DNA of 64,000 nucleotides from Bacilli bacterium (GCA_050953085.1 JBMNLX010000003.1:57757-121756), one strand, 5' to 3'. Shown: positions 1,108 to 63,654, numbered from the stretch's first letter. The notes: generated by a model not told the origin, from the sequence alone. Made by a program: numbers and translations.

Positions 1108-1134
1108 AAAAAGCCCGATTTGACGGGCCTTTTT
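1108..1134. terminator. Bidirectional Rho-independent terminator between the MBL hydrolase (+) and cotJC (-)
   Basis: aaaaaaaGCCCGatttgaCGGGCCtttttt: a GC stem with an A-run on one side and a T-run on the other. Confidence 0.5.
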
Positions 1135-1694: not shown

Positions 1695-1695
1695 T

Positions 1696-6699: not shown

Positions 6700-6715
6700 G
6701 TCTCCTTAAGCAAAA

Positions 6716-9264: not shown

Positions 9265-9265
9265 C

Positions 9266-10459: not shown

Positions 10460-10461
10460 AT

Positions 10462-12321: not shown

Positions 12322-12394
12322 AAAGTCTCCTAGCCAATAACATTATACAATAAATTGCCGTTTTAGGCAATAAATATAAAGGCAGGAGCGCTTC

Positions 12395-16272: not shown

Positions 16273-16321
16273 CGCGCGTTTTTTTATATTTTAACCAATC
16301 GGCGACGCCATAACCAAAAAT

Positions 16322-16354
16322 AAAAAAAATAATTGGCTGAAAAACCAATTATTT
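16322..16354 (-). terminator. Putative AT-rich Rho-independent terminator overlapping the stop of the flavin-reductase-like gene
   Basis: AATAATTGG-loop-CCAATTATT followed by a T8 run on the minus strand. The stem has low GC content. Confidence 0.35.
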
Positions 16355-16840
16355 TTTCAGATAATCGATAATCTCGCCTACGTACGCCCGGTGATAGTCA
16401 TCTTTCGGATAATAACGCACCTTGACCGCGGCGGGAATTAGATCCTTGTCAAGATCCTGATAATATAATTTTTTGCACACAAAGGTCAGCCGCGCTTCCT
16501 CGAAAGTAACCCCATCGCCGGCCTTCACAGGGGTGAGATTGCATTTTTTCACTTTGTCCTCGTCGCGGCCGCTATGCGAGCCGAGATAACGAAGTTTATT
16601 GTCGTATGATTCGTCGTAAAACGAAACGGTAAACACGTCCGATTTTTCCATGAACTCATAAGTATAACGGGACGGGCGAACGAAACAAATCAAGACGTTC
16701 CTGCTCCAAAGCACGCCCAAAGTCGCCCAACCGATGGTCATAACGTTAAAGTTTGAAATCGTGCCCGCGGCGAGCAAAGCAGAATCCTTGCCGACGATTT
16801 TAAAGATATTCTCGGAAAAATCATAAATGTTATTTTTCAT
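16349..16840 (-). CDS. Flavin reductase-like (FMN-binding split-barrel) family protein
   Basis: 163 aa. Conserved-domain-like region NVMTIGWATLGVLWSRNVLICFVRPSRYTYEF, typical of the flavin reductase-like family. Confidence 0.55.
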   Translation of the reverse strand: MKNNIYDFSENIFKIVGKDSALLAAGTISNFNVMTIGWATLGVLWSRNVLICFVRPSRYTYEFMEKSDVFTVSFYDESYDNKLRYLGSHSGRDEDKVKKCNLTPVKAGDGVTFEEARLTFVCKKLYYQDLDKDLIPAAVKVRYYPKDDYHRAYVGEIIDYLKK

Positions 16841-49092: not shown

Positions 49093-49250
49093 TATATTCT
49101 CCTTTCTAAAATTGCGCCACGCTTCCTGGCGTTTCAAACATTGATAAAATTTAGTTTTGGCAGCGCCAAAACCGTTTTAAAAATTAACCCGTAATATTAT
49201 ACGCTTATTTCGCTCAAATGTCAAGAATTTTTACTTATATTTTAGGGGAA

Positions 49251-50631
49251 TTGTGAATATATTATGATAATTTCATATAGAGTTATATAATGATAATTTC
49301 ACTAAATACAAAGGTTAATTGTATTAGCGTAGGCAACCCTTAATTTTGTAATTTAAGCCCTTCTTTGATATCATATGGATTAATATGGATATGTATCAAC
49401 GGAGGGAAGACACATGAGAAAGGTCGAACTAAGAATGAACGAGCAAATGAAGTATGAAATTATCAGAAGAGTAGCTTTTAAAGAAATCAGCGTCCACAGA
49501 GCAGCGGTCCAGCTTAACTGTACCGTAAGAACCGTCTATAACCTCGTCAAAAAGTATCGGGAACATGGTAAGGCCGGCTTTATCCACGGTAACAGGAACC
49601 GAAAACCGGCCGCTACCATGAGCCCAAAACTTGAACAAACCATTGTTTCGTTTTATATGCAAAAATGCGAAGGTGCCAATTTTCTACACTTCCAGGAGTT
49701 GCTGGAAGAGATAAAAGGCATTAAAGTCTCTTATTTCAAACTCTACGCGCTTCTGCGTAAGCATGGGATCATATCTCCCAAGTGTCATAGGATTACCCGT
49801 AAAAAACACACGCAAGAGACTTTAAAGGGTTATTACAACATATTTCACCAGGTATTGACCAAATACGGCATACCGGCGAAAATTTTGGCCGATAACAGGT
49901 CAATCTTCAATTACAAGCTTAAGAACAGCCATTCTAAAGAAAAAGACACGCATACGCAATTCGGATATGCCTGCCATCGGCTCGGGGTCGATCTTGACAC
50001 GACTTCCGTCGCCCAAGCAAAGGGCAGAATCGAAAGAATGTTCGGTACCCTCCAAAGCCGGTTGGTTACGGAACTTAAGATGGCAGGCATATTCGATATC
50101 GATGCGGCTAATGAGTTCTTGAAGGATTTTGTCCCAAAATTCAACGAGCGTTTCGCGCTCCCCATCGATTATCTCACATCGGTTTTTGACGAGAACATCG
50201 ATCAAGAAACCATCAATAACACATTAGCCGTCATCAGCGCAAGAAAAGTCGATAACGGTAATACGATTAAGTACAAAAATAAGTATTATCACCTGTATGA
50301 CTTTGATGGCAACATGATGCCATTCAAACCCAAAACGGTATGTATCGTTATGGAAACTTACGACGGATCTCTCATCGCCTCGGTTAACGATGATCTTTAC
50401 GGGTTGGTAGAGCTTGAGGTCCATCACGAATTTTCCAAGAACTTTGACACGAAAAAACCGGAAAAGAAACGCTATACCGGCCATAAGCCCAAGGATTGTC
50501 ATCCCTGGACCTATAAAAGCTATCTGGCCAGAAAAAGAAGGCGTTACAAGTCCAGGGCGGAAACCCTTGCTTAACAAGTACTGGACAAATAATCAGGTAT
50601 TTTTTGTGAAATTTTCATTATATATTGACAG
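49251..50631 (+). mobile_element. Intact ISNCY-like insertion sequence (about 1.38 kb) between rpsL and rpoBC
   Basis: Imperfect terminal inverted repeats: 21 of 25 positions match between TTGTGAATATATTATGATAATTTCA on the left and the reverse complement of the right end. A single transposase ORF. The first 180 bp are identical to a second partial copy at 61856..62035. Confidence 0.7.
49414..50574 (+). CDS. ISNCY-family DDE transposase (HTH + integrase-core)
   Basis: 386 aa. N-terminal MRKVELRMNEQMKYEIIRRV...FIHGNRNRKP pattern, typical of proteins annotated as ISNCY-family transposases. rve-like core. Confidence 0.7.
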   Translation: MRKVELRMNEQMKYEIIRRVAFKEISVHRAAVQLNCTVRTVYNLVKKYREHGKAGFIHGNRNRKPAATMSPKLEQTIVSFYMQKCEGANFLHFQELLEEIKGIKVSYFKLYALLRKHGIISPKCHRITRKKHTQETLKGYYNIFHQVLTKYGIPAKILADNRSIFNYKLKNSHSKEKDTHTQFGYACHRLGVDLDTTSVAQAKGRIERMFGTLQSRLVTELKMAGIFDIDAANEFLKDFVPKFNERFALPIDYLTSVFDENIDQETINNTLAVISARKVDNGNTIKYKNKYYHLYDFDGNMMPFKPKTVCIVMETYDGSLIASVNDDLYGLVELEVHHEFSKNFDTKKPEKKRYTGHKPKDCHPWTYKSYLARKRRRYKSRAETLA

Positions 50632-50678: not shown

Positions 50679-53600
50679 CTACTCTTCGTCTTCTTCAACA
50701 TTAATAACGTAATCGGCGTCGATAATTCCCGTTCCGGCAGGGATTAAGCCGCCGATAATAATATTTTCTTTAAGTCCTTCAAGATAGTCTTTCTTACCGC
50801 GGATGGCGGCTTCCGTAAGAACGCGCGTCGTTTCCTGGAAGCTTGCCGCGGAAAGGAAGGAGTCGGATTTCAACGAAGCGCGGGTAATGCCCAAGAGCAT
50901 GGATTTTACTATCGGCACCTCGATGTTGTTTTTCCGGCAGTCTTCGATAATATCGTAGAGCTCGTTTTTCGATATTTGCGTGCCCGGTAGAAGATTGGTC
51001 CCGCCTTCGTGCACGACGACCACTTTTTGAAGCATCTGTCGAATTATGATTTCAATATGCTTGTCGGCGATTTCAACGCCTTGGGAACGGTAAACTTTCT
51101 GCACCTCGCCGAGGATGTATTTGCCGACATCGTCGACGGTGCTGACTCTTAGAAGTTCCTTCGGGTGAATCATTCCCTCGGTCAAGGGCTGACCGGCTTT
51201 TACCCGGTCGCGCTCGTGCACGATCGGGACTTTCCCGAATTCGGTAAGATATGTTTTCTCTTCCAGGTTGTTTTTGATCTTGATCTCAAACCTGTTGTCT
51301 TTATCGTGACGGATGGAAGTAACGATGCCGTCGATTTCGGTAATCGTTGCCTTAAGTTTCGGTTGGCGCGCTTCGAAAAGTTCCTGAATCCGGGGCAAGC
51401 CCTGGGTAATGTCCTCGGCCGCGACGCCGCCGGAATGGAACGTACGCATCGTAAGCTGCGTGCCCGGCTCGCCGATCGATTGAGCGGCGATAATACCGAC
51501 GACCTCGCCGATCTCGACGATCTCGCTCGTCGAAAGGTCGCTGCCATAACAGTGGACGCAGACGCCGCTTTTCGCATCGCAAGTGATCAGCGTGCGAATC
51601 TCCACTTCCTTCACACCAGCCTTCACGATTCTCTCCGCCAAATCGTCGTCGATATATGTTTGCGCGGCGACCATGACTTCGCCCGTTTTCGGATTTATAA
51701 CCGGCTTGTTGGTGAAACGCCCGCGAATCCGGTCGTAAAGGGGGATGTTGCTTTCCTCAAGCGCGGTCACGATCATTCCCTTATCCGTGCCGCAATCCTC
51801 CTCGGTAACGGTGACGTCCTGGCTCACGTCAACGAGGCGGCGGGTAAGATAGCCCGACTCGGCCGTTTTCAAAGCCGTGTCGGTCGAGCCTTTCCGGGCG
51901 CCGTGCGTCGAGATAAAGAACTCGGACATCGTCAGTCCCTCGCGGAAGGAAGCCCTGATCGGGATATCCATGATCTCGCCGTTGGGCTTGGCCATTATGC
52001 CGCGCATCCCCGAAAGCTGAACGAAGTTGGAAATATTACCGCGGGCGCCGCTGTCGCTCATCATATACAAATGATTAGTCGCAAAATCCTTTTGAACCTC
52101 GGCGTGAATCGCGTTTTCAAGCTTCTCCTTCGCTTTTTGCCAGACCTCGATAACGCGCTGGCTGCGTTCTTTTTTCGTCATATAACCCTTGCGATAAAGG
52201 CTGTCGTATTTATCGACCTTCTCCTCGGCTTCCGCCAAGACTTCTTTCTTGACGTCAACGACCCTGATGTCCTCCGCGGCGATCGTGATGCCGGAAATCG
52301 TGGAGTACTTAAACCCAAGGTCTTTCATCCGGTCGAGAGTTTTCGACGTCTCCGCAAGTTTAAACTTCTTAAACACCTCGGCGATAATCTGGCTTAAAAA
52401 CTTCTTCCTGAAAGGGTGGGGCGACTCCATCCTGTTTAGGAGATTGCGGAAGGTTTCGCCCGGTTTTAAATCCCGGACGGAAACGAAATATTTATCCGGC
52501 GTTTTATCGGTGAGATTTTCCAAAGTCGCCTCGTTAATGTAAGGAACATAAGGCGGCTCCTGCGGAAAAATCGTATTAAAGATAATTTTGCCGTAAGTCG
52601 TGACCAAGTACTTTTTTTGTTGTTCCGGCGTGAAATGCGGGTTATTAAAAATCTTAGCCGGAATCAAGATTCGGGTATGGAAATTAATATCGCCGTTTTC
52701 GTAAGCAAGCTCGACCTCGCTCAGCGAGGAATAGACTTTTCCTTCGTTCTCTTCCCCGCGTTTTTCGATCGTCAGGTAATAGTTGCCCAAGACCATGTCC
52801 TGCGAGGGGGTAACGATCGGTTTTCCGTCCTTCGGCGCAAGGATGTTTTTCGAGGCCAGCATCAAAAGCCTCGCCTCGGCTTGCGCCTCTTCCGAAAGCG
52901 GGACGTGAACCGCCATCTGGTCGCCGTCGAAGTCGGCGTTAAACGCCGGCGTGACCAGGGGATGCAAGCGGATCGCTTTTCCCTCGACCAGTTTCGGCTC
53001 AAAAGCCTGGATTCCAAGCCGGTGCAGCGTCGGCGCGCGGTTTAAAAGCACCGGGTGCTCGACAACGATCTTTTCCAGCTCGGTCATGGCGATCGGGTCG
53101 CCCGTTTCGATCATTTCCTTCGCCCGTTTCAGGCTGATCCGGTTTCCGCCCTCGGGATTTTCTCTGTCGCGTTCAAGAATCGCGTTGATGATAAAGGGTT
53201 TAAACAAAATCAACGCCATTTCCCGCGGTATCCCGCACTGATACATCTTAAGGTCGGGACCGACGACGATAACGCTCCGGCCGGAGTAATCGACGCGCTT
53301 ACCGAGAAGGTTTTGCCGGAAGCGGCCCTGCTTTCCGCGCAAAAGGTCGGACAGGGACTTAAGCGGCCTGTTTCTCTCCACGACCACCTTCTTGTTTCGC
53401 TTGCTGTTGTCAATCAGGGCGTCGACCGCCTCCTGAAGCATCCGTTTCTCGTTTTTCGTAATCAAGCCCGGGGCGCGCTGCTCGTATTGTTTCTTCAAAC
53501 GGTTATTGCGGTTTAAGATCCGCCGGTATAGGTCGTTTAAGTCGGTCGTCGCGAAACGGCCGCCGTCAAGTTGGACCATCGGTCGAAGATCGGGAGGCAA

Positions 53601-56600
53601 GACAGGGATAACTTCCATGACCATCCATTCCGGTTTGTTTCCGGATTGTTGAATCGCCTCGATAACGTCAAGCCGCTTGATTAGTTTCTCGCGCTTTTGC
53701 TTGGTAGCTTTCTTTAACTCCTCGCGTAGCTGCTCGGCCGTTTCTTTTAAATCCAGGTCCTGCAATAGTTTTTTAATCGCTTCAGCGCCGGTAAGCGCCT
53801 TAAACTTCGAGGAACCGAATTCCCTCTGAAACTGGCTGTGTTCCTGCTCGGTGAGGATTTGCCCTTTATGCAGGATATCGACGGATCCCGGGTCAACGAC
53901 TATATAGGAGGCGAGATAAACGATTTCCTCGACTTCTTTCGTTTTCATGTCGAGCAACAACGCGATTTTCGAAGGGATGTTCTTCAAAAACCAAGAATGA
54001 ACGACGGGCGCGGCGAGTTCGATATGACCCATTCTTTCTCTTCTGACTTTGCTTTCGGTCAGCTCGACGCCGCACCGCTCGCATTTCGTCTCGCCTTTCG
54101 GCGTAATCGAACGCCGGGATTTCCCGCAGGCGCATTGATAGTCCTTCGTCGGCCCGAATATTACCTCGCAAAACAAGCCGTCGCGTTCCGGCTTTAGCGT
54201 GCGGTAATTTATCGTTTCGTGCTTTTTTACCTCGCCGTGGGACCAGCCGCGGATTTCCTCGGGGGAAGCGATGCCAATTTGAATGTATTTATATTTATTC
54301 TTGTTTTCTTGTTTCTTATCGCGCGGCGGCGCGCTTTCCACGAGACTTCTGTTGGCGACGTCTTCGCCTGTTTCAGCGTCAATAAGTTTCACGCTCAAGC
54401 CCAAGCCTTGCAATTCCTTAACCAAAACCCGGAAAGATTCTGGAATTCCGGGGTTGGGAATCGGGTCGCCGTCGACGATCGCCTTGTATACTTTATTCCG
54501 GCCGATAATATCGTCGGACTTGATCGTGAGCATTTCCCGAAGCGTATAGGCGGCGCCGTAAGCCTCCAAAGCCCACACTTCCATTTCCCCGAAACGCTGG
54601 CCGCCGTTTTGGGCTTTTCCGCTCATCGGCTGCTGCGTTACCAGGGCATAGGGACCCTCGCTGCGCGCATGAATCTTATCGTCAACCATGTGCGCGAGTT
54701 TGATCATATACATGATGCCGACGGCGATACGACTGTCAAACGGTTTGCCCGTCCGCCCGTCGTAGAGAACCATTTTGCCGTCGGGCTCCATTTTCGCTTC
54801 TTCCATGATCTCCCTTAAGTCCTCGTTCTCGACGCCGTCGAAAACGGGGGAAGCGATATAGCAGCCAAGCTTTTTCGCGGCCATCCCCAGATGGATCTCC
54901 AGAACTTGACCGATATTAAGCCGCGAGGGTATCCCCTGCGGGTTTAGCATGATGTCGATCGGCGTGCCGTCTTCCATATACGGCATATCCTCTTGGGGAA
55001 GAATCCGGGAAATAACGCCTTTGTTTCCATGGCGCCCGGCCATCTTGTCGCCCTCGCTTATCTTGCGTTTTTGCACGATATAAACGCGAACGACCTCGTT
55101 GACTCCCGGCGGTAATTCCGCGCCGTCTTTGCGACGAAAATGCTCGATACGGTGGACGATGCCGCCGCCGCCGTGCGGGACGCGCAGGGAGGTGTTGCGC
55201 ACGTCTTTGGAACTGTCGCTGAAGAGCGCTTGGGAAAGCCGTTCTTCCGGCGTCGGGTCGGTCTGTCCTTTCGGGGTCACTTTCCCGACAAGTATATCGC
55301 CTTCTTTTACCTCGGCGCCTAAGCGGACGATGCCGTATTCGTCGAGGTTGGCGATCGCTTCTTTGCGATCGTTTTCCAGGTCGCGGGTGATTTCTTCCTT
55401 GCCAAGTTTCGTGTCGCGAACCTCGACCTCGTATTTTTCGATATGAATTGATGTATAAACGTCATCCTGAACCAAACGCTCGCTTATGACGATCGCGTCC
55501 TCGTAGTTGTAACCGTCCCAGGTCATAAAAGCGACCGTGACGTTTTTCCCAAGCGCGAGCTCGCCGCCGTCCATCGCGGGACCGTCGGCGATGATGTCGC
55601 CGCGCTTGACGGACTCGCCCTTCCTGACAATCGGTTTTTGATTGAAGCAGGTGGAATGATTGGAGCGTTCGTATTTGACCAGGTTATATTCTTTCAGTTT
55701 ACCGCCGGCCTCGCGAAGGATTATCTTCCGGGAGTCGACGTATTCGACAACCCCGTCTCTCTCGCAAACGACGGCGGTGCCGGAGTCTTTCGCCGCTTTT
55801 TCCTCGATCCCGGTCCCGACATACGGGGCCTCCGTCTGTAGCAGCGGGATTGCCTGCCGTTGCATGTTGGCCCCCATCAGGGCGCGGTTTGCGTCGTCAT
55901 GCTCGAGGAAGGGGATGCAGGCGGTCGAAACGGAAACGATTTGCTTCGGCGAGACGTCGATCAAATCGACTGTTTCTTTCGGCACCTCAAAGGTATCGCC
56001 GCCGAAACGGGCGACGACGACATCGTCGATTATTTCGTTTTTCTCGTTCACCCGGATATTCGCCTGGGCGATATGATACTGTTCTTCCTTATCGGCGGTC
56101 AGATAAATTATTTCATCGGTTATCAACGGATTCTTTTTCGCTCTTTGCTTTACTTTAAGATAAGGCGTCTCGATAAAACCGTACTGGTCGACGCGGGCGT
56201 AAGTCGCAAGAGAGTTAATCAAGCCGATGTTCTGCCCTTCCGGCGTTTCGATCGGACAAATCCTCCCGTAGTGGGAAACGTGAACGTCGCGAACCTCGAA
56301 AGTCGCCCTTTCCCGGTTTAAGCCGCCGACGCCTAAGGCGCTGATGCGCCGTTTATGCGTGAGTTCCGACAGGGGATTGATTTGATCCATGAACTGCGAC
56401 AGCTGGCTGCTGCCGAAAAACTCGCGGATTGACGAAGTCAACGTCCGGATGTTGATCAAGTTTTGCGGAATGATGCTGCGCGGGTCGGACGATGTCGACA
56501 TCCGATCGCGAACGTTCTTCTCCATTTTCGCAAGCCCAATCCGGAATTGGTTTTGGAGAAGCTCGCCGATAAGCCGCAGGCGACGGTTGCCCAAATGGTC

Positions 56601-57806
56601 GATATCGTCAATTTTGCCGATATCGTCGTGCAGGTTGATATAATAACCGACCGCCGCGAAAATATCGGACAAAGTTATATGATTGGCGGTTTCGCTCTGA
56701 TCGTTGCCGATGAGCCGGAAAGTTTCCTTTAAACCGTGATGTTTTTCATACTCGATGTCGAGGATTTCCAAAACGACGGAATTCCCGACGAGCATTTGCT
56801 CGTATTCCTTCCGGACGCGGATCAGGCGACGGTTTTTAGCCAAAAATTCGCACGCCTGGGCGCTGATTTTTTCCCCGGTCGAAAATACCACCTCGCCGGT
56901 CTTGGAATCAACGATATCGGAAGCGAAAGCGCATTTATCATAGCCGATATCCTTAACGCGAGCAAGAACGTCGAGTTTTTTATTCACCTTGTACCGCCCG
57001 ACGTTCGCAAGGTCATATCGGCGAGTGTCGAACAAACGGTTGCACAGGTAATTTCTCGCGCCTTCCGGCGTCGCTTTCTCGCCGGGACGCATTCTTTCGT
57101 AAAGCTGCTCCAAGGCGTCGTCGGAACCGAAAGATTCGTCTTTATCGAAAGTGTTCCGGATATACTCGCTGTCGCCGTAAAGCTCGATAATCTCGCGGTT
57201 GGAATTAAGGCCCAAAGCGCGCAAAAACGTCGTCAAAGGTATTTTCTTTGACCGGTCTAGTTTCGCATACCAGATATCCTTCGAGCCCATCTCGAGTTCG
57301 ATCCAGGCTCCGCGGGTCGGGATGATCTGCCCGTAATACTGGATTTGGCCTTGTTTTAGCAGGGTAGCGTAAAAAACCCCGGCTGAACGGATGATTTGCG
57401 AGACAATGACGCGTTCCGCGCCATTTATAATAAAAGTACCCGAGGGGGTCATAATCGGAAAATCGCCGAGGAAAATCTTTTGTTCCTTGATTTCCTTGGT
57501 CTCTTTATTCACAAGCCGGACGTCGACCTTCAAGGCCGATGCGAAACTAACGTCGTTCTTTTTGCTCTCCATCGGACTGTATTTCGGCGGCTCGAATTCA
57601 AAATCACCGAAATAAAGCTCCAATTTTTCCCCGTGATCGCGAATCGGGGAAATCTCCGCAAACAGTTCTTTAAGTCCGGTGGTCATAAACCATTCGAACG
57701 ATTTTAATTGTACTTCGATTAAATTGGGGAGCTCGACGTTAGTCCTGACGCGCGAATAATTCCGGCGAACCCGATTTTTCCCATAGGTAACGTTTTTCCA
57801 AATCAA
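50679..57806 (-). CDS. rpoBC: DNA-directed RNA polymerase beta-beta' fusion (rpoB-rpoC in one reading frame)
   Basis: A single 2375-aa ORF. The N-terminal roughly 1170-aa part is rpoB, judged from rpoC typically being about 1200 aa. It ends ...[20 protein letters not shown] short linker, [24 protein letters not shown], joins it in-frame to the rpoC N-terminus [39 protein letters not shown]. Direct translation around 54300 to 54350 confirms there is no stop, no RBS and no ATG at the junction. Confidence 0.85.
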
Positions 57807-57886
57807 ATGATTTCCACCTCACATTTTTAATGAAAAGGACTGCAAAAGCACATTATATCGCATTTTATTATGTTAACACAAACTTG

Positions 57887-58495
57887 TCAAAAAGTCAAAG
57901 GTTTTTTGATATAAAAAACACAATATCCTTTTTTCACGAGAACGGTCTCCAAAAAACCGGATAAAGCGGCCGCTTTTTCCATCATCCTCTTCGCTCCCTG
58001 CCGTTTTCTCATGACCGCCCAGAGATATCCGCCGGGCGCGAGTCGTTCGTAACCTTGCGCGAAGATGGCTTCGACAGTCGCCATCCCTGCCCGAATCGGG
58101 GGGTTAGTGATAATGACATCAAAAAGACCTTCCGCGTTTTCATACAAATCACCGGCGTACGCTTTCGCGTTTTCAAGTTTCATCTCAAGAGCGCTTCTTC
58201 GCGCGAGATCGACGGCCCGTTTGTTAACGTCGCTTAGCTCGACCCGAAAACCCGGGTACGCCTTGGCCAACGCAAGACCAATTATCCCGTAACCGCAGCC
58301 GATATCAAGAGCCCGGACATCCTTTTTTTCCGGCGGGACGAAGGACTGAAGCAAAAGGTGCGTCCCGAAATCGACTCGCTCGCGCGCGAAAACACCGCGG
58401 TCTGTATACATAACCAAACGATGGCCGCGGTAATCGTAGGTTATTTTCCGGATCTCGCTCTTTAATCCCGGGTCGTTTATATAGTAATGACTCAT
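57887..58495 (-). CDS. Class I SAM-dependent methyltransferase (YbxB/RsmC-like)
   Basis: 202 aa with the SAM-binding motif LDIGCGYGIIGLALA and an NPPI catalytic motif. It occupies the Bacillus ybxB position between rplL and rpoB. Confidence 0.75.
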   Translation of the reverse strand: MSHYYINDPGLKSEIRKITYDYRGHRLVMYTDRGVFARERVDFGTHLLLQSFVPPEKKDVRALDIGCGYGIIGLALAKAYPGFRVELSDVNKRAVDLARRSALEMKLENAKAYAGDLYENAEGLFDVIITNPPIRAGMATVEAIFAQGYERLAPGGYLWAVMRKRQGAKRMMEKAAALSGFLETVLVKKGYCVFYIKKPLTF

Positions 58496-59295
58496 GCCGC
58501 CGGCGCCCCCGACGCGCGTTTTTTCTTGAAGAATAATGTATAAAACAATATCGCGATTCCCGTCAAAACCATCAGGAAGCTTAACACGAGCGACGGCGGA
58601 AACCCAAACAATAGCCCGCGCGGGTCGTCGCGGAAAAACTTTTCCATGACAAAGCGAAAAACGCCGTAACCGATTAAGTATGAGGCAAATTTATGTTTCT
58701 TTACCTTGGGAACGTATACGAGAACAAAGAAAAACGCGAAAAGAAAAAAGGCCTCGTAAAGCTGAGTCGGGTGGATCGGGACGCGGATGCCGTCGGCGTA
58801 AGGATTGGTTCCCGGGGGAAACAAAACGCCGAAAACGCCGTCCGTCTCCCGCCCGTAACAGCAACCGGCGGTAAAGCAACCGAGGCGGCCGAAAGCGTGC
58901 GCCAATACGACGCCGGGAATAATTATGTTGAGCAACCGCAAAATATTCTTTCTCTCATCCGGATAAAAAAAGTAAATTAAAACGGCGAAAACAGCGACGC
59001 CGCCAATGAAGCCGCCGATATAAGTAATCGGGCCAAATGCAAAAACCCCGGTTTGAAAATAATGAAACACGGCGTCAAAAAGCAAGGCTGAAAGCAAAGC
59101 GAAAGCGAGCGACAAGGCGATAAAAATCAAGAATTTATTCGTCGCGGCCCGCGGGTATCTCTCCTTCTTCTCGAAAGCGTAGATCGCGTACTCGACGAGA
59201 ACGATAATGCCGACGCCGAGCAAGACACCATATAGATCGAGACCGATTTTTCCCAGCCATTCGTTAATATTTACGACAAAATCCGGATATTTCAT
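58492..59295 (-). CDS. lgt: Prolipoprotein diacylglyceryl transferase
   Basis: 267 aa. Lgt signature region GRLGCFTAGCCYGRETD. Polytopic membrane protein. Confidence 0.9.
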   Translation of the reverse strand: MKYPDFVVNINEWLGKIGLDLYGVLLGVGIIVLVEYAIYAFEKKERYPRAATNKFLIFIALSLAFALLSALLFDAVFHYFQTGVFAFGPITYIGGFIGGVAVFAVLIYFFYPDERKNILRLLNIIIPGVVLAHAFGRLGCFTAGCCYGRETDGVFGVLFPPGTNPYADGIRVPIHPTQLYEAFFLFAFFFVLVYVPKVKKHKFASYLIGYGVFRFVMEKFFRDDPRGLLFGFPPSLVLSFLMVLTGIAILFYTLFFKKKRASGAPAA

Positions 59296-59304
59296 AACTG
59301 TCTC

Positions 59305-60765
59305 CTATCTCCTGTATAATTTGGTCCAAGCGGAAATTTTCGCCGCTAATTCGGCGTTCGTTTGACCCTTTTTCAAGCGCCATCGCCAGTTACCGCCCAA
59401 AGTCGCCGGCGTGTTCAAGCGCGCCTCGGCCCCCAGTTCGAGATAATCCTGCATCGGAATAATGGCGATATCGCACGCGGAAGCAAGCGCCGCTTTAATA
59501 AATCTCTCGACCGCTTCGCCAGGCTCGCGAATCCCCAAATATTCATAAACGAACGCCAGATCGGGAGGCGAAAGCGACGCGAACCAAGCTTTTGTCGGGG
59601 GATTATCATGCGTTCCCGGATAGCATACAGCGTTTTTCACATGATTATGCGGAAGATATATGCTATCGTCCCGATGATCGAAAGCAAACTGCAAAATCTT
59701 CATTCCCATAAAACCGGCCTCGTCGCGCAGTTTATACACGTCTTCCGTAAGATAACCCAAGTCCTCGGCAATAATAGGTAGCTCGCCGAGTTTTTCCGCT
59801 ATTTTTCGGAATAAACCGCTGCCCGGCCCCTTTATCCACGCCCCATGGCGCGCGGTGTCGGCCTGGCGGGGAATCGCGTAATAGGCCTCGAACCCGCGGA
59901 AATGATCAATTCGCAAACAATCATACAGGGACAAGGCGTGTCTAAAACGTTCGACCCACCAGGAATAATCCTCCTCAGCCATTTTTGCGTAATTATATAA
60001 CGGGTTTCCCCAAAGTTGTCCTTCGGGTGAAAAGGCGTCGGGAGGGCAACCGGCGACCGAAAGCGGCGCGAGGTTGCTGTCGAGCTGCCAATTAAGGGGG
60101 GCGGCCCATACGTCGCTTGAATCATACGCCACATAATAGGGCAGGTCGCCGATAATCTTTATCCCCGCGCGGTTTGCGTAGGCTTTTAACCGGCGCCATT
60201 GTTTGTGAAAGAAAAACTGGAGAAACTTCCAAAAACCAATCTCTTCCCGTTTGGCGGCGATAAAGTCATGAAAGGCCGCGCCTTTACGGAATTTAAGGGG
60301 CTCATCCCACCGGTCCCAAGCCCCCTCCGGCGTTTCGTTTTTAATCGCCATAAATACGGCGTAATCTTTTAACCAGCTTTCGTTTTCGACATCAAATTCC
60401 CGATAAGCCTTGTCGTGACGGAACCGTCCGTATGCTTTCCTTAACACTTTATAGCGATTTCGGTATTGATAGAAATAATCGATATCCCCTTCGTCCGTCT
60501 TCATCAAATTATAATCCTCGGGCGCGAGTAGCCCGTCCTCGCGCAAGAAGTCAAAATCGATATAATAGGGATTTCCGGCAAACGCGGAAAAAGTCTGGTA
60601 GGGGGAGTCGCCGTATGTCGTCGGACCCAAGGGCAACACCTGCCAATACTTCTGCCCGGCGGCCGCCAGGAAATCGATGAATTCATAGGCTTCTTTCCCC
60701 AAAGTCCCGATCCCATATGGATTGTTTAACGAACTTACCGGCAATAATATCCCACTTCCGCGCAT
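59305..60765 (-). CDS. malQ: 4-alpha-glucanotransferase (amylomaltase), second paralog
   Basis: 486 aa, beginning MRGSGILLPVSSLNNPYGIGTLG. Clearly homologous to the protein at 12395..13861; the identity level was not computed. Confidence 0.85.
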   Translation of the reverse strand: MRGSGILLPVSSLNNPYGIGTLGKEAYEFIDFLAAAGQKYWQVLPLGPTTYGDSPYQTFSAFAGNPYYIDFDFLREDGLLAPEDYNLMKTDEGDIDYFYQYRNRYKVLRKAYGRFRHDKAYREFDVENESWLKDYAVFMAIKNETPEGAWDRWDEPLKFRKGAAFHDFIAAKREEIGFWKFLQFFFHKQWRRLKAYANRAGIKIIGDLPYYVAYDSSDVWAAPLNWQLDSNLAPLSVAGCPPDAFSPEGQLWGNPLYNYAKMAEEDYSWWVERFRHALSLYDCLRIDHFRGFEAYYAIPRQADTARHGAWIKGPGSGLFRKIAEKLGELPIIAEDLGYLTEDVYKLRDEAGFMGMKILQFAFDHRDDSIYLPHNHVKNAVCYPGTHDNPPTKAWFASLSPPDLAFVYEYLGIREPGEAVERFIKAALASACDIAIIPMQDYLELGAEARLNTPATLGGNWRWRLKKGQTNAELAAKISAWTKLYRR

Positions 60766-60854
60766 TTTTCCTCCGAAATAAGACTAACTATAGTATATAC
60801 GATAATTGGAAAAATAAACCTAAAAAGTCTAGTTGCTAGCAACTAGACTTTTGG

Positions 60855-61541
60855 TCACCAATTAATAAGCGAAAATTTTATTTCGTCTTTATCTTTCAGA
60901 GGAATATCGGAAATACCTACCAACGAAGAGAGACCGTTGACATTGATTTGCCAGAAGGTCTCGGGATAATCCTCGGCGTTGATATCGCAAATCGTTGTGA
61001 TATAAAAACCGTAGGATTCTTCTCTTCCGCCCATTTGGATTTCCTCGTGTTCCTGCAACAGACCCAAAAGCGTGTCGCCCTCGCGAAAACTTATTTCGCC
61101 GTTAAACACCTCTTCTTTTTCATAATTCACGACGATGACCGTAATCGTCCCTTTCGCGTCGTTTTCCTTAATAAGCGAAAATTTTATTTCGTCTTTATCT
61201 TTCAGAGGAATATCGGAAATACCTACCAACGAAGAGAGACCGTTGACATTGATTTGCCAGAAGGTCTCGGGATAATCCTCGGCGTTGATATCGCAAATCG
61301 TTGTGATATAAAAACCGTAGGATTCTTCTCTTCCGCCCATTTGGATTTCCTCGTGTTCCTGCAACAGACCCAAAAGCGTGTCGCCCTCGCGAAAACTTAT
61401 TTCGCCGTTAAACACCTCTTCTTTTTCATAATTCACGACGATGACCGTAATCGTCCCTTTCGCGTCGTTTTCCGGATTGTCACACCCGGCAAGGGCGAAA
61501 AACGCCAAAAACAATAAGAAAACCAAAAAAATCTTTTTCAT
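60855..61541 (-). CDS. Lipoprotein with two tandem DUF4430-like (transcobalamin-like) domains; putative cobalamin-binding surface protein
   Basis: 228 aa. Lipobox LAGC. Two identical 102-aa repeats ending FWQINVNGLSSLVGISDIPLKDKDEIKFSL, matching the DUF4430 C-terminal pattern (W.y.vNG...vGa..y.lkdgD.I.f). Preceded by a cobalamin riboswitch. Confidence 0.6.
   Translation of the reverse strand: MKKIFLVFLLFLAFFALAGCDNPENDAKGTITVIVVNYEKEEVFNGEISFREGDTLLGLLQEHEEIQMGGREESYGFYITTICDINAEDYPETFWQINVNGLSSLVGISDIPLKDKDEIKFSLIKENDAKGTITVIVVNYEKEEVFNGEISFREGDTLLGLLQEHEEIQMGGREESYGFYITTICDINAEDYPETFWQINVNGLSSLVGISDIPLKDKDEIKFSLINW
60862..61473. repeat. Perfect 2 x 306-bp tandem duplication inside the lipoprotein gene
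   Basis: 60862..61167 and 61168..61473 appear identical at every position checked. The duplication is in-frame (102 codons). Confidence 0.9.
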
Positions 61542-61544
61542 TTT

Positions 61545-61790
61545 TACATTCCTTTCACGATAATGTAATATGAAAATAGGAAATATAAAAATGAAATATA
61601 TTTGCCTATTCTCATACCCAGGAGAAACGCATTCAGTACTTGGTAAGTCTTCCGGCTCAGCTTCGCTTTACTCTCAGCCCTTCCCGCCCGCGGGCAGTGG
61701 AATTCTGATTTCATCCGCTTTACGGCTGCTGGGACAGCTTAGGCTTTTCACCTAATTCCTTGTTATGCTTGCGCACCAAATACCGGCGAT
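61545..61790 (-). ncRNA. Cobalamin (B12) riboswitch
   Basis: The minus-strand 5' UTR of the lipoprotein gene contains GGTGCGCAAGC...GGAATTAGGTGAAAAGCC...CCACTGCCCGCGGGCGGGAAGG...GCCGGAAGACTTACC. The last element matches the B12 box (compare E. coli btuB GCCCGAAGACCTGCC). The CCACTG...GGGAAG core is also present. An expression-platform hairpin lies just 5' of the RBS. Confidence 0.7.
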
Positions 61791-61855
61791 TTCATTGATT
61801 ATTATAATAAAAGCAAAGCGAAAAGTCAATAACACAAATACCGCAAAGTGAAATT

Positions 61856-62035
61856 ATTGTGAATATATTATGATAATTTCATATAGAGTTATATAATGAT
61901 AATTTCACTAAATACAAAGGTTAATTGTATTAGCGTAGGCAACCCTTAATTTTGTAATTTAAGCCCTTCTTTGATATCATATGGATTAATATGGATATGT
62001 ATCAACGGAGGGAAGACACATGAGAAAGGTCGAAC
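61856..62035 (+). mobile_element. Solo 5'-end fragment (180 bp) of the ISNCY-like IS
   Basis: 100% identical to 49250..49429: left IR, leader, RBS and the first 5 transposase codons. After that the sequence diverges, and no transposase follows. Confidence 0.8.
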
Positions 62036-62478
62036 GAAGCCACAGAATCGATAACGAACGGTTCTACAAGGATAATCTCAAAATTGCTTTAGGTAAAAAA
62101 ATCCAGGAATTATTGATGAATATTTGGAAAAGTTTAAATTATCACGCTTTCACAATATTTCTATTAATATCACACCATATATTCCCATTTATTGCAAGGG
62201 GAAATAAAAAAAGCCTGCAGATGCAGACTTTGTCAACAGGCTGTAGTGTAGAAACACTATAAACTGTTCAGCCCTCAATATTCACAATACCTGCTAAACC
62301 GATGTTTTTACCAGGTTATTGAATGTTATTACTTCATCATCCGTTTTAAATAAAACTTCCAAATTAATGGCAATTGAATCTGATTTGTAATATAATAGGC
62401 TTGCGCTAATATATTAGTCATTACGTAAAGCCGCCCCCGGGTAATATTTATATACAAACATAAGGCTGAATGTATATA

Positions 62479-62535
62479 TAGATATAATATGAAAAAAGGT
62501 GAAGCCCATCCTAAGCATAACTACTGGGTTTCACC
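62479..62535. terminator. Bidirectional Rho-independent terminator downstream of rplL
   Basis: GGTGAAGCCCA-tcctaagcataactac-TGGGTTTCACC, with a T6 run on the plus strand and a T6 run on the minus strand (A6 on plus). Confidence 0.6.
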
Positions 62536-62619
62536 TTTTTTGTAGGGCTATTTTATTTCTTTACAGCCCCTTAAAGTACCAGCTTATGGGTATGTCAATA
62601 ATCATTAATTATGAGTTAA

Positions 62620-62994
62620 CTATTTTAACTCGACGGTAGCGCCGGCTTCTTCCAATTTTGCCTTGATAGCGTTCGCTTCGTCTTCGGAAACATCTTCCTT
62701 AACCGCTTTCGGCGCCGCTTCAACAAGGTCTTTCGCTTCTTTCAGCGGTAATCCCAGTAATTCGCGTACGGCTTTGATAACGGGGATCTTGTTCTGACCA
62801 AAGCTTGTCAGGACGACGCTGAACGAAGAAGGCTTGTCGTCTTCTTTCGCATCGTCAGCCGCGGGAGCGACGGCGGCCACGGCGGCGGCGGTAACGCCGA
62901 ATTCCTCTTCGATAGCCTTAACTAATTCGTTAAGTTCCAGAACGGTCATTTCCTTTAATTGCTCGATAAATTCCTGTACGTTTAATTTAGCCAT
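62620..62994 (-). CDS. rplL: 50S ribosomal protein L7/L12
   Basis: 124 aa with an alanine-rich hinge and the conserved C-terminal domain [27 protein letters not shown]. Confidence 0.95.
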
Positions 62995-63009: not shown

Positions 63010-63546
63010 TTAAGCTTCTTGTTTTTCGGCCACGGCCTTAACGGCAATCGCTAGTTTGCGTATTGGCGCCTGCAGCACGCTTAACAGCATTGATAACATG
63101 CCGTCTTTGTTCGGCAGTCTGGCGAGGACTTTCAGTTCGCTTTCTTCGACGACTTTTCCCTCGATAATGCCGAATTTGACTTTCAATTTTCTATTTCTTT
63201 TCAAAAAATCATAAACTATGCGCGACGTGTTCGTCGCGTCATCCGACAACACTACAGCGTTCGGACCAACAAAGGCGTCGTCAAAATCGTGACCGAGCGC
63301 TTTCGTGGCCCGACGTAAAATATTGTTCTTAAGAACATGCATTTCGCAGCCCTCTTTGTATAGATTGCCGCGAAGTTCCGAGATCTCGGCAACAGTCAGA
63401 CCCAAATAGTCAACAAATAAAAGCGATTTGCTTTCCCGGAATTTGTCCGCGTACTGATCGACCAATTCCGCCTTTTTCTTCAGCGTTGCCTCTTTCATTT
63501 TTTTCACCTCCGTCGAAAAATAAAACCTCTTTTTGCCGAAAAGCAA
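63010..63546 (-). CDS. rplJ: 50S ribosomal protein L10
   Basis: 178 aa, uL10, immediately upstream of rplL. Confidence 0.93.
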   Translation of the reverse strand: MLFGKKRFYFSTEVKKMKEATLKKKAELVDQYADKFRESKSLLFVDYLGLTVAEISELRGNLYKEGCEMHVLKNNILRRATKALGHDFDDAFVGPNAVVLSDDATNTSRIVYDFLKRNRKLKVKFGIIEGKVVEESELKVLARLPNKDGMLSMLLSVLQAPIRKLAIAVKAVAEKQEA

Positions 63547-63654
63547 AAAGAGGGATGGATTCCGTCTTAATACCTCGGTAGGAAATTAAGCTTTATGAGC
63601 ACCTACTGTCTTCGGCAAATAATTTATTACTATTTTATTGTAGTCGGGTTATTC
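63547..63654 (-). promoter_or_regulatory. Candidate L10 (rplJ) leader / attenuator
   Basis: Spacer between rplA and rplJ. It contains the hairpin CCTCTTTTTGC-ttttc-GGCAAAAAGAGG followed by U's just upstream of the GGAGG RBS. This resembles the Firmicutes L10-leader arrangement. Confidence 0.35.

What the first reader, a model, noticed from the sequence alone, without database searches (positions are those of the whole stretch)
61545..61790. Cobalamin riboswitch controlling an orphan lipoprotein, located inside the rplL-rpoB interval
On the minus strand the 5' UTR of the lipoprotein gene carries the hallmark B12-riboswitch elements (GGUGC, GGAAUUAGGUGAAAAGCC, CCACUG...GGGAAGG, and a B12 box GCCGGAAGACUUACC). 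The regulated gene encodes only a lipoprotein with DUF4430-like, transcobalamin-like domains. No ECF/BtuCDF transporter or cobalamin-biosynthesis genes are adjacent. What follows instead is malQ-lgt-methyltransferase-rpoBC. This looks like a B12-regulated surface cobalamin-capture protein standing alone in a core ribosomal/RNAP neighbourhood.
Basis: partly seen in the sequence, partly recalled or inferred. Interest (0 to 1): 0.6.

Follow-up and report, generated by a model that had tools for sequence, protein, structure and literature searches.

The report
B12 riboswitch controlling a B12-binding lipoprotein
A genuine vitamin-B12-sensing RNA switch sits in front of a small surface lipoprotein built like the B12-gripping half of human transcobalamin; it is an unusual stand-alone version of a widespread bacterial B12-uptake module, not a new kind of system.

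Summary
Rfam places a full-length cobalamin riboswitch (RF00174, 88.6 bits against a cut-off of 31.5) at 61625-61795 (-). It has its own near-consensus promoter. The next gene (60855-61541, -) encodes a 228-aa lipoprotein with two DUF4430 domains and ends in a strong terminator, so the unit is probably monocistronic. An AlphaFold model matches only transcobalamin, haptocorrin and intrinsic-factor beta domains and 3U7Z. No B12 transporter, synthesis gene or B12 enzyme was recognised in the 64 kb.

Tools added four points:
- The riboswitch-lipoprotein unit between rplL and rpoB recurs in at least five related uncultured Bacilli lineages.
- Elsewhere DUF4430 proteins are membrane-anchored and sit directly upstream of a CbrT-like ECF S-component (63 of 69 loci), often behind RF00174 (10 of 20). 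The window's clade is a derived, uncoupled lipoprotein form.
- The 228-aa protein is a perfect 306-bp in-frame tandem duplication. It varies among strains, and a similar duplication arose independently in at least one other lineage.
- The leader fits B12-dependent translational repression through an L5-L13 kissing loop.

Verdict: a new member, and a mildly unusual variant, of a known kind. B12 binding and the partner transporter remain untested. Interest is low to moderate.

The parts
61801..61829 (-). Sigma-70-type promoter of the riboswitch-lipoprotein unit (TTGACT, 17 nt, TATAAT)
   Evidence: 11 of 12 consensus matches. TTGAC and TATAAT are invariant in the four lineage leaders aligned. The -10 element ends 6 nt before the aptamer starts.
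61625..61795 (-). Cobalamin riboswitch aptamer (RF00174), with the P6 extension and the B12 box GCCGGAAGACUUACC
   Evidence: 88.6 bits against a gathering score of 31.5, E 1.6e-20, model 1-189/189. Matching hits precede the orthologous gene in L001, L002, L010, L012, L015 and L018. P1 shows compensatory changes between the window and L015.
61609..61626 (-). Proposed P13 hairpin (UUCUC/GAGAA). Its loop L13 (CUGGGUAU) is complementary to aptamer loop L5 (UCCCAG)
   Evidence: RNAalifold pairs columns 25-29 with 38-42 in all four sequences. UUCUCCUGGG is invariant. Read by eye: L5 and L13 change together in L016 (UCUCGC / CGAG) and L017 (UCCCGC / CGGGG). This is an inference from sequence.
61567..61619 (-). 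Long AU-rich hairpin, the proposed anti-sequestor ('ON' structure). Its 5' arm overlaps L13 and P13. Its loop and 3' arm (about 61572-61596) are complementary to the SD-AUG region
   Evidence: It appears in the MFE folds. With SD-AUG held single-stranded it is the MFE at -21.0 kcal/mol; the alternative of P13 plus SD/AUG pairing is -24.2. Analogous alternative pairings exist in L015 (computed) and L018 (read by eye).
61539..61555 (-). Shine-Dalgarno AAAGGAA (61549-61555) and the ATG start codon (61539-61541)
   Evidence: Sequence. GAAAGGAAUGUAAAAAUGA is conserved in the window, L001 and L002. With L13 blocked, the SD is unpaired with probability only 0.02 in the partition function.
60855..61541 (-). 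Lipoprotein gene, 228 aa: signal peptide with lipobox LAGC (Cys20), then two identical DUF4430 / transcobalamin-beta-like domains (roughly residues 29-125 and 131-227)
   Evidence: PF14478, 90.9 bits, two stretches. AF2 models: single unit pLDDT 89.4; full length pLDDT 88.2 with two folded domains and pTM 0.50. Foldseek hits to transcobalamin beta domains. The profile hits 3U7Z at 2.7e-8, TCN1 at 0.0066 and the TCN2 beta domain at 0.014.
60862..61473 (-). Perfect in-frame tandem duplication, 2 x 306 bp (102 codons each), which creates the second domain
   Evidence: TRF: period 306, 2.0 copies, 100% matches. The 228-aa form occurs as two sequence variants on three contigs. The 126-aa single form occurs on more than 200 contigs, including one of 1.8 Mb. 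L010 and L012 have an identical malQ but the 126-aa form.
60823..60852 (-). Intrinsic terminator immediately after the lipoprotein gene
   Evidence: 13-bp stem, 4-nt loop and a T-run. An equivalent hairpin plus T-run follows the orthologue in L015.
62620..62994 (-). rplL, the upstream boundary of the interval (context)
   Evidence: Pfam Ribosomal_L12 and L12_N. A hairpin plus T-run is visible at about 62495-62545.
61856..62039 (+). Fragment of the left end of an IS element, about 27 bp upstream of the riboswitch promoter (context). The 80-aa ORF 62020-62262 starts within it
   Evidence: 99.5% identical over 184 bp to 49250-49433, the sequence that leads into the transposase-like gene 49414-50574.
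50679..60765 (-). Downstream context: malQ (59305-60765), lgt (58492-59295), MTS methyltransferase (57887-58495), fused rpoB-rpoC (50679-57806)
   Evidence: Pfam.

Best explanation
This is a self-contained, B12-repressed gene for a cell-surface corrinoid-binding lipoprotein. A near-consensus promoter drives a class-I-type cobalamin riboswitch (it has the P6 extension, so it most likely senses adenosylcobalamin). When intracellular B12 is high, the ligand-bound aptamer locks an L5-L13 kissing loop onto a small hairpin (P13) just downstream of P1. That blocks formation of a long AU-rich hairpin, whose loop and 3' arm then pair with the Shine-Dalgarno sequence and start codon, and translation is shut off. 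When B12 is low, the long hairpin forms first and leaves the ribosome-binding site open. The product is lipidated at Cys20 and held on the outer face of the membrane. Each of its one or two roughly 100-aa beta-grasp domains is a homologue of the transcobalamin beta domain. I infer that each binds a corrinoid and passes it to an importer encoded elsewhere in the genome, most likely an ECF-CbrT-type system. Shown here: the riboswitch, the promoter and terminator, the lipobox, the fold, the conserved synteny, and the family-wide link to CbrT and RF00174. Inferred: B12 binding, hand-off to a transporter, and translational rather than transcriptional control.
For: Riboswitch: RF00174 at 88.6 bits, full length. 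It is conserved in front of the orthologue in L001, L002, L010, L012, L015 and L018.

Own promoter and terminator.

Fold: AF2 pLDDT 89.4. All Foldseek hits with E <= 3.3e-5 are 3U7Z or transcobalamin, haptocorrin or intrinsic-factor beta domains. Target-normalised TM-score is 0.77 to the isolated human TC beta domain (5NO0) and 0.76 to its cyanocobalamin-bound form (5NP4). The profile alignment lines up G-x-Y-(I/L)-T, FWQ, the G-I-x-D region and the C-terminal Trp with TCN2.

Precedent for a lone beta domain holding B12: isolated TC-beta co-purifies with Cbl and crystallises with CNCbl and cobinamide (PMC5599065). The beta domain is ranked the most favourable Cbl interface in TC (PMC11107200).

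Family context:
- 63 of 69 CbrT-like loci have a DUF4430 gene directly upstream.
- The partner profile hits CbrT of the solved B12 transporter ECF-CbrT (6FNP) at E 3.9e-14.
- 10 of 20 sampled loci, plus L016 and L017, carry RF00174 upstream.
- In L007 the homologue lies between glutamate mutase genes and a CobA/BtuR-type adenosyltransferase gene.
- Burroughs et al. 2007 predicted that this clade scavenges B12 (PMC1796856).

Expression platform: two alternative structures, at -21.0 and -24.2 kcal/mol, share the L13/P13 segment and the anti-SD segment. The same logic works in L015 (computed) and L018 (by eye). L5 and L13 covary in L016 and L017 (by eye).
Against: No binding data exist for any bacterial DUF4430 protein in the searchable literature. 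The only functional claim found is for haem uptake, by L. sakei Lsa1839/1840 (bioRxiv 864751). No transporter partner was found in the window. None of the top 120 CbrT-like clusters lies on a contig of this lineage. The metagenome scan did not return the window's contig. The hand-off step therefore has no direct support here. The platform model rests on thermodynamic folding of near-identical sequences; RNAalifold found no double-sided compensatory change. The inner part of the long hairpin, followed by UUUUCAUAUU, could instead act as a weak terminator. In full transcobalamin the alpha domain also contributes to affinity, and no alpha-like domain is present here.
Confidence: 0.6

Rival explanations
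1. The same riboswitch and protein, but the protein does not feed an importer. It hoards or buffers corrinoid at the surface as a competitive sink, or it carries out the whole capture step with two beta domains sandwiching one corrinoid in place of the missing alpha domain.
For: The gene is uncoupled from cbrT in every member of this clade examined. The anchor has changed from a TM helix to a lipobox. Tandem duplication has arisen independently at least twice: the window strain at 100% identity, P0002 with domains 70% identical, and possibly P0006 at 40%.
Against: A working intracellular B12 sensor implies that B12 enters the cell, so an importer must exist. AF2 gives no confident inter-domain packing (pTM 0.50). 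The single-domain form is by far the commoner in the population.
Confidence: 0.15
2. The lipoprotein binds a different tetrapyrrole or ligand, for example haem as claimed for the L. sakei transcobalamin-like pair, or a metal as in the PDB title of 3U7Z. B12 would then be only the regulatory signal.
For: The bioRxiv 864751 authors assign haem uptake to an ECF-like operon that has beta- and alpha-like transcobalamin homologues. 3U7Z was deposited as a 'putative metal binding protein'.
Against: Riboswitches nearly always control genes for the synthesis, transport or use of their own ligand. The family's partner is homologous to the experimentally proven B12 S-component CbrT. Contexts include glutamate mutase and an adenosyltransferase. 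The 3U7Z label is a structural-genomics guess.
Confidence: 0.07
3. The riboswitch acts by transcription termination, or also governs the downstream genes malQ-lgt-methyltransferase-rpoBC by read-through, so the true regulated unit is larger than the lipoprotein.
For: The inner hairpin (UAGG.AAAUAUA / UAUAUUUCCUA) is followed by UUUUCAUAUU. The Clostridia relative L017 has what looks like a classical terminator in its platform (by eye). The scan listed no minus-strand promoter-like site in the 89-bp gap (60766-60854) between the lipoprotein and malQ.
Against: A 13-bp terminator with a T-run follows the lipoprotein gene here, and an equivalent one follows it in L015. No antiterminator alternative was found. 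malQ is absent from the same interval in L015, so the downstream genes are not a conserved regulon. B12-dependent shut-off of rpoBC would make little physiological sense.
Confidence: 0.12
4. The two-domain gene is an assembly artefact, and the real gene encodes the 126-aa single-domain protein.
For: The two copies are 100% identical over 306 bp. Contigs with an identical malQ carry the single form.
Against: The 228-aa form occurs as two sequence variants (V7 and F7) on three contigs, with the same junction. It lies on a 1.56-Mb contig. It is exactly in frame. Short-read assemblers tend to collapse such repeats rather than create them (own knowledge). Diverged two-domain homologues exist (P0002, P0006). 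In either case the finding itself, riboswitch plus DUF4430 lipoprotein, is unaffected.
Confidence: 0.06

Closest known systems
Beta (C-terminal) domain of human transcobalamin, haptocorrin and intrinsic factor (PDB 5NO0/5NP4, 4KKI, 2PMV; InterPro 'transcobalamin-like C-terminal', Pfam DUF4430; the SLBB transcobalamin-like clade of Burroughs et al. 2007)
   Same: The same beta-grasp fold with the clade-specific hairpin. Target-normalised TM-score is 0.76-0.77 to the isolated TC beta domain. Aligned motifs are shared: GxY(I/L)T, FWQ and the C-terminal Trp. Both are extracytoplasmic.
   Different: There is no alpha6/alpha6 toroid domain and no receptor-binding role. The protein is lipid-anchored and about 100 aa per unit, duplicated here. 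Sequence identity is only 17-23%. B12 binding is untested.
RUMGNA_00854 of Ruminococcus gnavus (PDB 3U7Z), a stand-alone bacterial DUF4430 protein
   Same: The best sequence match (E 2.7e-8) and the best structure match (E 3e-7, target-normalised TM-score 0.80-0.82). It is a single-domain bacterial protein of the same size.
   Different: It was deposited without a ligand or a function ('putative metal binding protein'). Identity is 26%. Its gene context was not examined here.
The riboswitch-DUF4430-CbrT two-gene module of Clostridia and Bacilli, and the L. delbrueckii nrdJ-cbrS-cbrT-pduO cluster that encodes the B12 transporter ECF-CbrT (PDB 6FNP; PMC5997447)
   Same: The same DUF4430 family (profile search). 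The same RF00174 control (L016, L017 and 10 of 20 sampled loci). The same inferred role in B12 acquisition.
   Different: The window's clade lacks the adjacent CbrT-like gene, which is present in 63 of 69 loci. It has a lipobox where the others have an N-terminal TM anchor. It sits between rplL and rpoB. Whether 'cbrS' is a DUF4430 gene could not be checked, because Rodionov et al. 2009 is not held.
L. sakei Lsa1839/Lsa1840, transcobalamin beta- and alpha-like proteins in an ECF-like operon (bioRxiv 864751)
   Same: A bacterial extracytoplasmic protein like the transcobalamin beta domain, associated with an ECF-type transporter.
   Different: It is paired with an alpha-like protein and encoded inside the transporter operon. 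The authors assign it to haem rather than B12. No riboswitch is reported.
Bacteroides surface B12-binding lipoproteins BtuG and BtuH, encoded in riboswitch-controlled btuB loci (own knowledge, not tested here)
   Same: They work in the same way: surface lipoproteins repressed by B12 riboswitches that capture corrinoids for a transporter.
   Different: Unrelated folds, an outer-membrane setting, and genes adjacent to their transporter genes.

Membership tests
Cobalamin riboswitch (Rfam RF00174, clan CL00101) | The covariance-model score reaches the family's gathering score over the full aptamer | tested here: met
   88.6 bits against 31.5, E 1.6e-20, model 1-189/189, no truncation.
Cobalamin riboswitch (Rfam RF00174, clan CL00101) | A conserved core including the B12 box, with helices supported by compensatory change in relatives | tested here: met
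   The B12 box GCCGGAAGACUUACC is invariant in four lineages. Both strands of P1 differ between the window and L015 yet stay complementary. Orthologous hits score 86-94 bits.
Cobalamin riboswitch (Rfam RF00174, clan CL00101) | A regulatory L5-L13 kissing loop linking the aptamer to the expression platform | tested here: inconclusive
   L5 UCCCAG and L13 CUGGG are complementary, and P13 is predicted in all four sequences. L5 and L13 change together in L016 and L017 (by eye). This is sequence inference only, with no formal covariation statistic.
Cobalamin riboswitch (Rfam RF00174, clan CL00101) | Binds a cobalamin and changes gene expression | not testable with these tools
   Needs in-line probing, ITC or a reporter assay.
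DUF4430 / transcobalamin-like SLBB beta-grasp domain (Pfam PF14478) | The HMM score is above the Pfam gathering score | tested here: met
   90.9 bits against 23.8, two stretches.
DUF4430 / transcobalamin-like SLBB beta-grasp domain (Pfam PF14478) | The fold of the transcobalamin beta domain | tested here: met
   AF2 pLDDT 89.4. The top 19 Foldseek PDB hits are only 3U7Z and TC, HC or IF beta domains.
DUF4430 / transcobalamin-like SLBB beta-grasp domain (Pfam PF14478) | Secreted or surface location | tested here: met
   N-terminal KK, a hydrophobic stretch and the lipobox LAGC. A lipobox is conserved in 21 clade members. This is sequence prediction only.
DUF4430 / transcobalamin-like SLBB beta-grasp domain (Pfam PF14478) | Binds a corrinoid | not testable with these tools
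   Contact-residue conservation was judged only at motif level. Docking or a holo model was not possible.
DUF4430-CbrT (ECF S-component) B12 uptake module | A CbrT-like S-component gene immediately downstream of the DUF4430 gene | tested here: not met
   The next gene is malQ, after a terminator. tblastn and hhalign find no CbrT-like sequence anywhere in the window. The pair is present in 63 of 69 reference loci.
DUF4430-CbrT (ECF S-component) B12 uptake module | An uncleaved N-terminal TM anchor on the DUF4430 protein | tested here: not met
   The window's clade has a lipobox Cys. Nearly all the more distant homologues, including every CbrT-linked one examined, lack it.
Full-length transcobalamin / intrinsic factor / haptocorrin (Pfam PF01122 Cobalamin_bind) | An N-terminal alpha6/alpha6 toroid domain joined to the beta domain | tested here: not met
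   No PF01122 hit. The protein consists only of a signal peptide and two beta domains.
BtuF-type or BtuG/BtuH-type B12-binding proteins | Sequence or fold similarity to periplasmic-binding-protein class III or to the BtuG propeller | tested here: not met
   Pfam and NCBIfam return no such family. Fold hits are beta-grasp only.

The most novel reading that the evidence does not exclude
The lipoprotein clade is a minimal bacterial 'transcobalamin' that works without an alpha domain and without a dedicated adjacent transporter. Pairs of beta domains, formed by dimerisation or by the repeatedly evolved tandem duplication, would clamp a corrinoid between them. The in-population 306-bp duplication would then be an adaptive change in B12-capture capacity caught in progress. 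The translational (non-terminating) riboswitch design would be forced by the unit's position upstream of rpoBC.
Probability: 0.15. Interest if true: 0.55.

Novelty: new member of a known kind. Interest (0 to 1): 0.3.

Why it matters
Bacterial DUF4430 proteins were predicted in 2007 to scavenge B12. Here they prove to be tightly linked to the proven B12 S-component CbrT and to B12 riboswitches. Yet no biochemical test of corrinoid binding turned up in the searchable literature. This clade offers a very small (about 100 aa), soluble-domain, single-gene version under a clean riboswitch, which makes it a convenient test case: does a lone transcobalamin-type beta domain bind corrinoids, and how does it serve ECF-type importers? 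The strain-level perfect duplication, and the independent older duplications, give a natural series for asking whether domain number matters. It also documents how genes can settle stably inside the otherwise conserved rplL-rpoB interval. None of this changes current understanding of B12 riboswitches.

Tried and rejected
- NCBIfam scan of the lipoprotein, the 80-aa ORF and the L007 neighbours: nothing above cut-off.
- Search for a partner transporter in the window. tblastn with the L007 292-aa lipoprotein, the CbrT-like protein and CobA gave nothing. hhalign of the CbrT profile against the two unannotated proteins next to an ABC ATPase (22498-25342) gave probability below 1%. That cluster looks like an unrelated ABC system.
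- Attempt to locate a CbrT gene elsewhere in the same genome. None of the top 120 of more than 1552 CbrT-like clusters has a longest contig matching this lineage. This is weak evidence of absence only.
- The 292-aa lipoprotein next to the L007 homologue was suspected to be a transcobalamin alpha-like domain.
- Checking whether L. delbrueckii 'cbrS' is a DUF4430 gene: Rodionov et al. 2009 is not held.
- RNAalifold on four close leaders gave no double-sided covariation in the platform, because three of the sequences are almost identical there.
- A transcription-terminator reading of the platform was considered and ranked second, because no antiterminator was found.
- The apparent split of rpoB and rpoC in L012 was rejected as evidence of polymorphism. 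It is caused by a run of N.
- Remnants of the acetyltransferase and WG-repeat genes that L003 has between rplL and the riboswitch were sought in the window's spacer: none found.

Full report
OBSERVATION. A scan of the whole window against Rfam 15 gives only three hits at gathering level. One is RF00174 (cobalamin riboswitch) at 61625-61795 (-): 88.6 bits against a threshold of 31.5, E 1.6e-20, covering model positions 1-189 of 189. The other two are the L10 and L20 ribosomal leaders. The riboswitch is real and complete.

A near-consensus promoter (TTGACT, 17 nt, TATAAT; 61829-61801) ends 6 nt before the aptamer. The next ORF (60855-61541, -) encodes 228 aa with a lipoprotein signal (MKKIFLVFLLFLAFFALAGC, lipobox LAGC) and two matches to Pfam DUF4430 (90.9 bits against 23.8). 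A terminator with a 13-bp stem and a T-run follows at 60852-60823. On this evidence the unit is probably monocistronic.

NEIGHBOURHOOD.
- Upstream on the same strand are the L10 leader, rplJ and rplL. Downstream are malQ (GH77), lgt, an MTS-type methyltransferase and rpoB/rpoC.
- Exact-protein look-ups place the window on JGI contig Ga0534105_00025 (1,555,702 bp) and supply Pfam labels for about 8-64 kb of the window. The remaining ORFs were scanned directly.
- The window holds glycogen genes, ribosomal and translation genes, proteases, a class A PBP-type protein (Transgly + Transpeptidase domains), CotJ-like genes and a transposase-like gene.
- No ECF component, BtuFCD, cobalamin-synthesis gene or recognisable B12 enzyme was found. 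The only loosely corrinoid-related item is a lone URO-D-family gene (15283-16272).
- 'No transporter adjacent' is therefore correct for these 64 kb.

WHAT THE PROTEIN IS.
- By sequence, the only solved relative of the single protein is 3U7Z (E 2.8e-4).
- A profile of 16 homologues improves that to 2.7e-8. It also reaches haptocorrin (0.0066, residues 375-427) and the isolated human transcobalamin beta domain (0.014). The alignment matches GxY(I/L)T, FWQ, GIxD and the C-terminal Trp.
- An AlphaFold2 model of residues 1-125 is confident (pLDDT 89.4). All 19 Foldseek PDB hits with E <= 3.3e-5 are 3U7Z or beta domains of transcobalamin, haptocorrin or intrinsic factor. Target-normalised TM-score to the isolated domains is 0.76-0.82. 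The next hits are ubiquitin-like folds at E > 0.02.
- The full 228-aa model shows two complete domains (pLDDT 88.2) with undefined mutual orientation (pTM 0.50).

The 'transcobalamin-like' label is therefore sound, but only for the beta half; there is no alpha-toroid domain. A lone beta domain can hold B12. Human TC-beta co-purifies with cobalamin and was crystallised with CNCbl and cobinamide (PMC5599065). The beta domain is ranked as the most favourable Cbl interface in TC (PMC11107200).

RELATIVES AND CONTEXT. Close homologues are few and come from uncultured Bacilli in anaerobic digesters. Their MAGs are variously labelled Bacilli, Bacillales UBA3946 or Acholeplasmataceae. The order rplJ-rplL-[RF00174]-DUF4430 lipoprotein recurs in five further lineages:
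- L001 and L003-L006 (80% protein identity);
- L002 (69%);
- L015 (49%; lgt, the methyltransferase and rpoB follow, but malQ is absent);
- L018 (55% over the full length; contig ends 0.7 kb beyond the gene);
- L010 and L012 (same species).
Riboswitch scores there are 86-94 bits. Where the contig extends far enough (L003-L006, L010-L012, L015), lgt, the methyltransferase and rpoB follow. The position between rplL and rpoB is a stable, inherited feature of this clade.

More distant homologues (P0016 onwards) look different.
- Most are about 131-aa proteins with an uncleaved N-terminal TM helix and no lipobox.
- In L007, L016 and L017 a 169-178-aa multi-TM protein follows immediately.
- That partner gives a full-length but sub-threshold match to Pfam ECF_trnsprt. 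Several sources call it an ECF S-component.
- As a profile it hits chain A of 6FNP at E 3.9e-14. 6FNP is the crystal structure of ECF-CbrT, the experimentally proven B12 importer of L. delbrueckii (PMC5997447).
- In 80 metagenomic loci retrieved with this partner, 63 of the 69 with enough upstream sequence have a DUF4430 gene directly upstream.
- 10 of 20 sampled loci have RF00174 upstream on the same strand, as do L016 and L017.
- In L007 the pair lies in an operon with glutamate mutase (B12-dependent), methylaspartase and a CobA/BtuR adenosyltransferase.

Burroughs et al. (2007) had already predicted that this 'transcobalamin-like SLBB' clade scavenges B12 next to CbiO/CbiQ-type genes (PMC1796856). 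The eLife paper mentions an nrdJ-cbrS-cbrT-pduO cluster. Whether cbrS is the DUF4430 gene could not be verified.

The kind is therefore known and common. The window's clade is a derived form: it is lipid-anchored, uncoupled from cbrT, and relocated next to lgt between rplL and rpoB.

THE DUPLICATION.
- The ORF contains a perfect 2 x 306-bp tandem repeat (60862-61473). Residues 24-125 and 126-227 are identical.
- Strains with an identical malQ protein carry a 126-aa single-domain gene (L010, L012).
- In the 90% cluster, the 228-aa form occurs as two variants (V7 and F7) on three contigs. The 126-aa form occurs on more than 200 contigs, including one of 1.8 Mb.
- Another species has a fixed two-domain gene at the same locus, with domains 70% identical to each other and 71-75% identical to that lineage's single-domain relative P0008, against 53-61% to the window's. 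That indicates an independent duplication. P0006 has two domains 40% identical.
- I read the window's copy as a real, very recent, segregating duplication. An assembly artefact is unlikely but not excluded.

HOW THE SWITCH PROBABLY WORKS.
- Directly after P1 comes the invariant UUCUCCUGGG. RNAalifold pairs UUCUC with GAGAA (P13), leaving CUGGGUAU as the loop.
- That loop is complementary to the aptamer's L5 loop UCCCAG. In L016 and L017 the two loops change together (UCUCGC/CGAG and UCCCGC/CGGGG; read by eye). This matches the L5-L13 kissing loop of cobalamin riboswitches (established knowledge).
- The segment that includes L13 and the 3' strand of P13 can instead form the 5' arm of a long AU-rich hairpin (61619-61567). 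The loop and 3' arm of that hairpin are complementary to the SD-AUG region.
- With SD-AUG kept free, the long hairpin is the optimum (-21.0 kcal/mol). The alternative, P13 plus SD/AUG sequestration, is -24.2 kcal/mol. With L13 blocked, the SD is unpaired with probability 0.02.
- The same three-way logic can be drawn for L015 (CUUUCCU against AGGAAAG; computed) and L018 (by eye).

I therefore favour B12-dependent translational repression, at roughly even odds. A weak terminator reading is the alternative. A non-terminating design would suit a unit that lies upstream of rpoBC, but that is speculation. The P6 extension suggests an AdoCbl-selective class; this is an inference from known classes and was not tested.

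COMPARISON AND NOVELTY. Membership of RF00174 and PF14478 is met on every feature that could be tested. Membership of the canonical DUF4430-CbrT module fails on adjacency and on anchor type. Membership of full-length transcobalamin fails on the alpha domain. Functionally, the nearest analogues are transcobalamin-beta, the cbrT-linked DUF4430 proteins and, by analogy only, Bacteroides BtuG and BtuH. This is a new member, and a slightly unusual lineage-specific variant, of a known and already predicted kind. It is not a new mechanism. The untested links are corrinoid binding and the identity of the importer.

VERDICT. Interest is 0.3.

Noticed in passing
window 50679-57806 (-): rpoB and rpoC form one 2375-aa ORF, with junction ...[29 protein letters not shown].... 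In the related species L003 they are separate genes: rpoB ends ...RDKK*, and rpoC starts 31 nt later. The fusion also appears in the independent assembly L010. The 'split' in L012 is only a run of N.
   Followed up: partly
window 60862-61473 (-); L018 8001-8675; P0006: A perfect 306-bp in-frame tandem duplication doubles the DUF4430 domain and varies among strains (228-aa against 126-aa forms). Diverged two-domain versions occur in other lineages: 70% identity between domains in P0002 (an independent duplication) and 40% in P0006. Duplication of this domain is therefore recurrent.
   Followed up: yes
window 61856-62039 (+) and 49250-49433 (+): A 184-bp segment about 27 bp upstream of the riboswitch promoter is 99.5% identical to the sequence leading into the transposase-like gene 49414-50574. 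It is a solo IS-end fragment. The 80-aa ORF 62020-62262 begins with the transposase's first codons (MRKVE). L003 instead has an acetyltransferase gene and a WG-repeat gene in this spacer.
   Followed up: partly
homologue set P0001-P0075: There is a clean split. The rplL-rpoB clade proteins (18 of them, plus 3 more distant hits) have a lipobox Cys at about position 20, and the gene lies close upstream of lgt (adjacent in L015; separated by malQ in the window and its closest relatives). Nearly all the others, including every cbrT-linked one examined, have an uncleaved N-terminal TM anchor.
   Followed up: partly
L007 1-11460 (Acholeplasmataceae MAG GCA_050953825.1): A long operon: glutamate mutase (B12-binding subunit, MutL, GlmE), methylaspartate ammonia-lyase, citrate-lyase-type genes, a 292-aa lipoprotein of no known family, DUF4430, a CbrT-like gene and a CobA/BtuR adenosyltransferase gene. 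The 292-aa lipoprotein might be a transcobalamin alpha-like partner; this could not be tested.
   Followed up: partly
L086 2588-6468: In an unrelated Firmicute contig, the DUF4430-cbrT pair lies directly upstream of rpmG-(secE)-nusG-rplK-rplA-L10 leader-rplJ. That is a second case of this module sitting beside the ribosomal-protein/RNAP supercluster.
   Followed up: no
window 59305-60765 (-) and 12395-13861 (-): There are two GH77 4-alpha-glucanotransferase genes. One lies in a glycogen cluster (glgB/C/D/A/P, about 2384-13861). The other is inserted between the lipoprotein and lgt in the rplL-rpoB interval, and is absent from that interval in L015.
   Followed up: no
window 15283-16840 (-): A URO-D-family gene (329 aa, PF01208) lies next to a flavin-reductase-like gene. 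In anaerobes this family includes corrinoid-dependent methyltransferases, so this may be a B12 user, but no corrinoid-protein gene is adjacent.
   Followed up: no
window 1134-2208 (-) and 38109-40025 (+): The genome has CotJC (Mn-catalase-like) and CotJA/CotJB-like genes and a class A PBP-type gene (Transgly + Transpeptidase domains). Some relatives of this genome are labelled Acholeplasmataceae, so the organism is probably a walled Bacilli lineage and not a mollicute.
   Followed up: no
window 63511-63633 (-) and 21180-21309 (-): The L10 leader (89.3 bits) and L20 leader (59.7 bits, just above its gathering score of 58.7) were found by Rfam in their expected positions.
   Followed up: no
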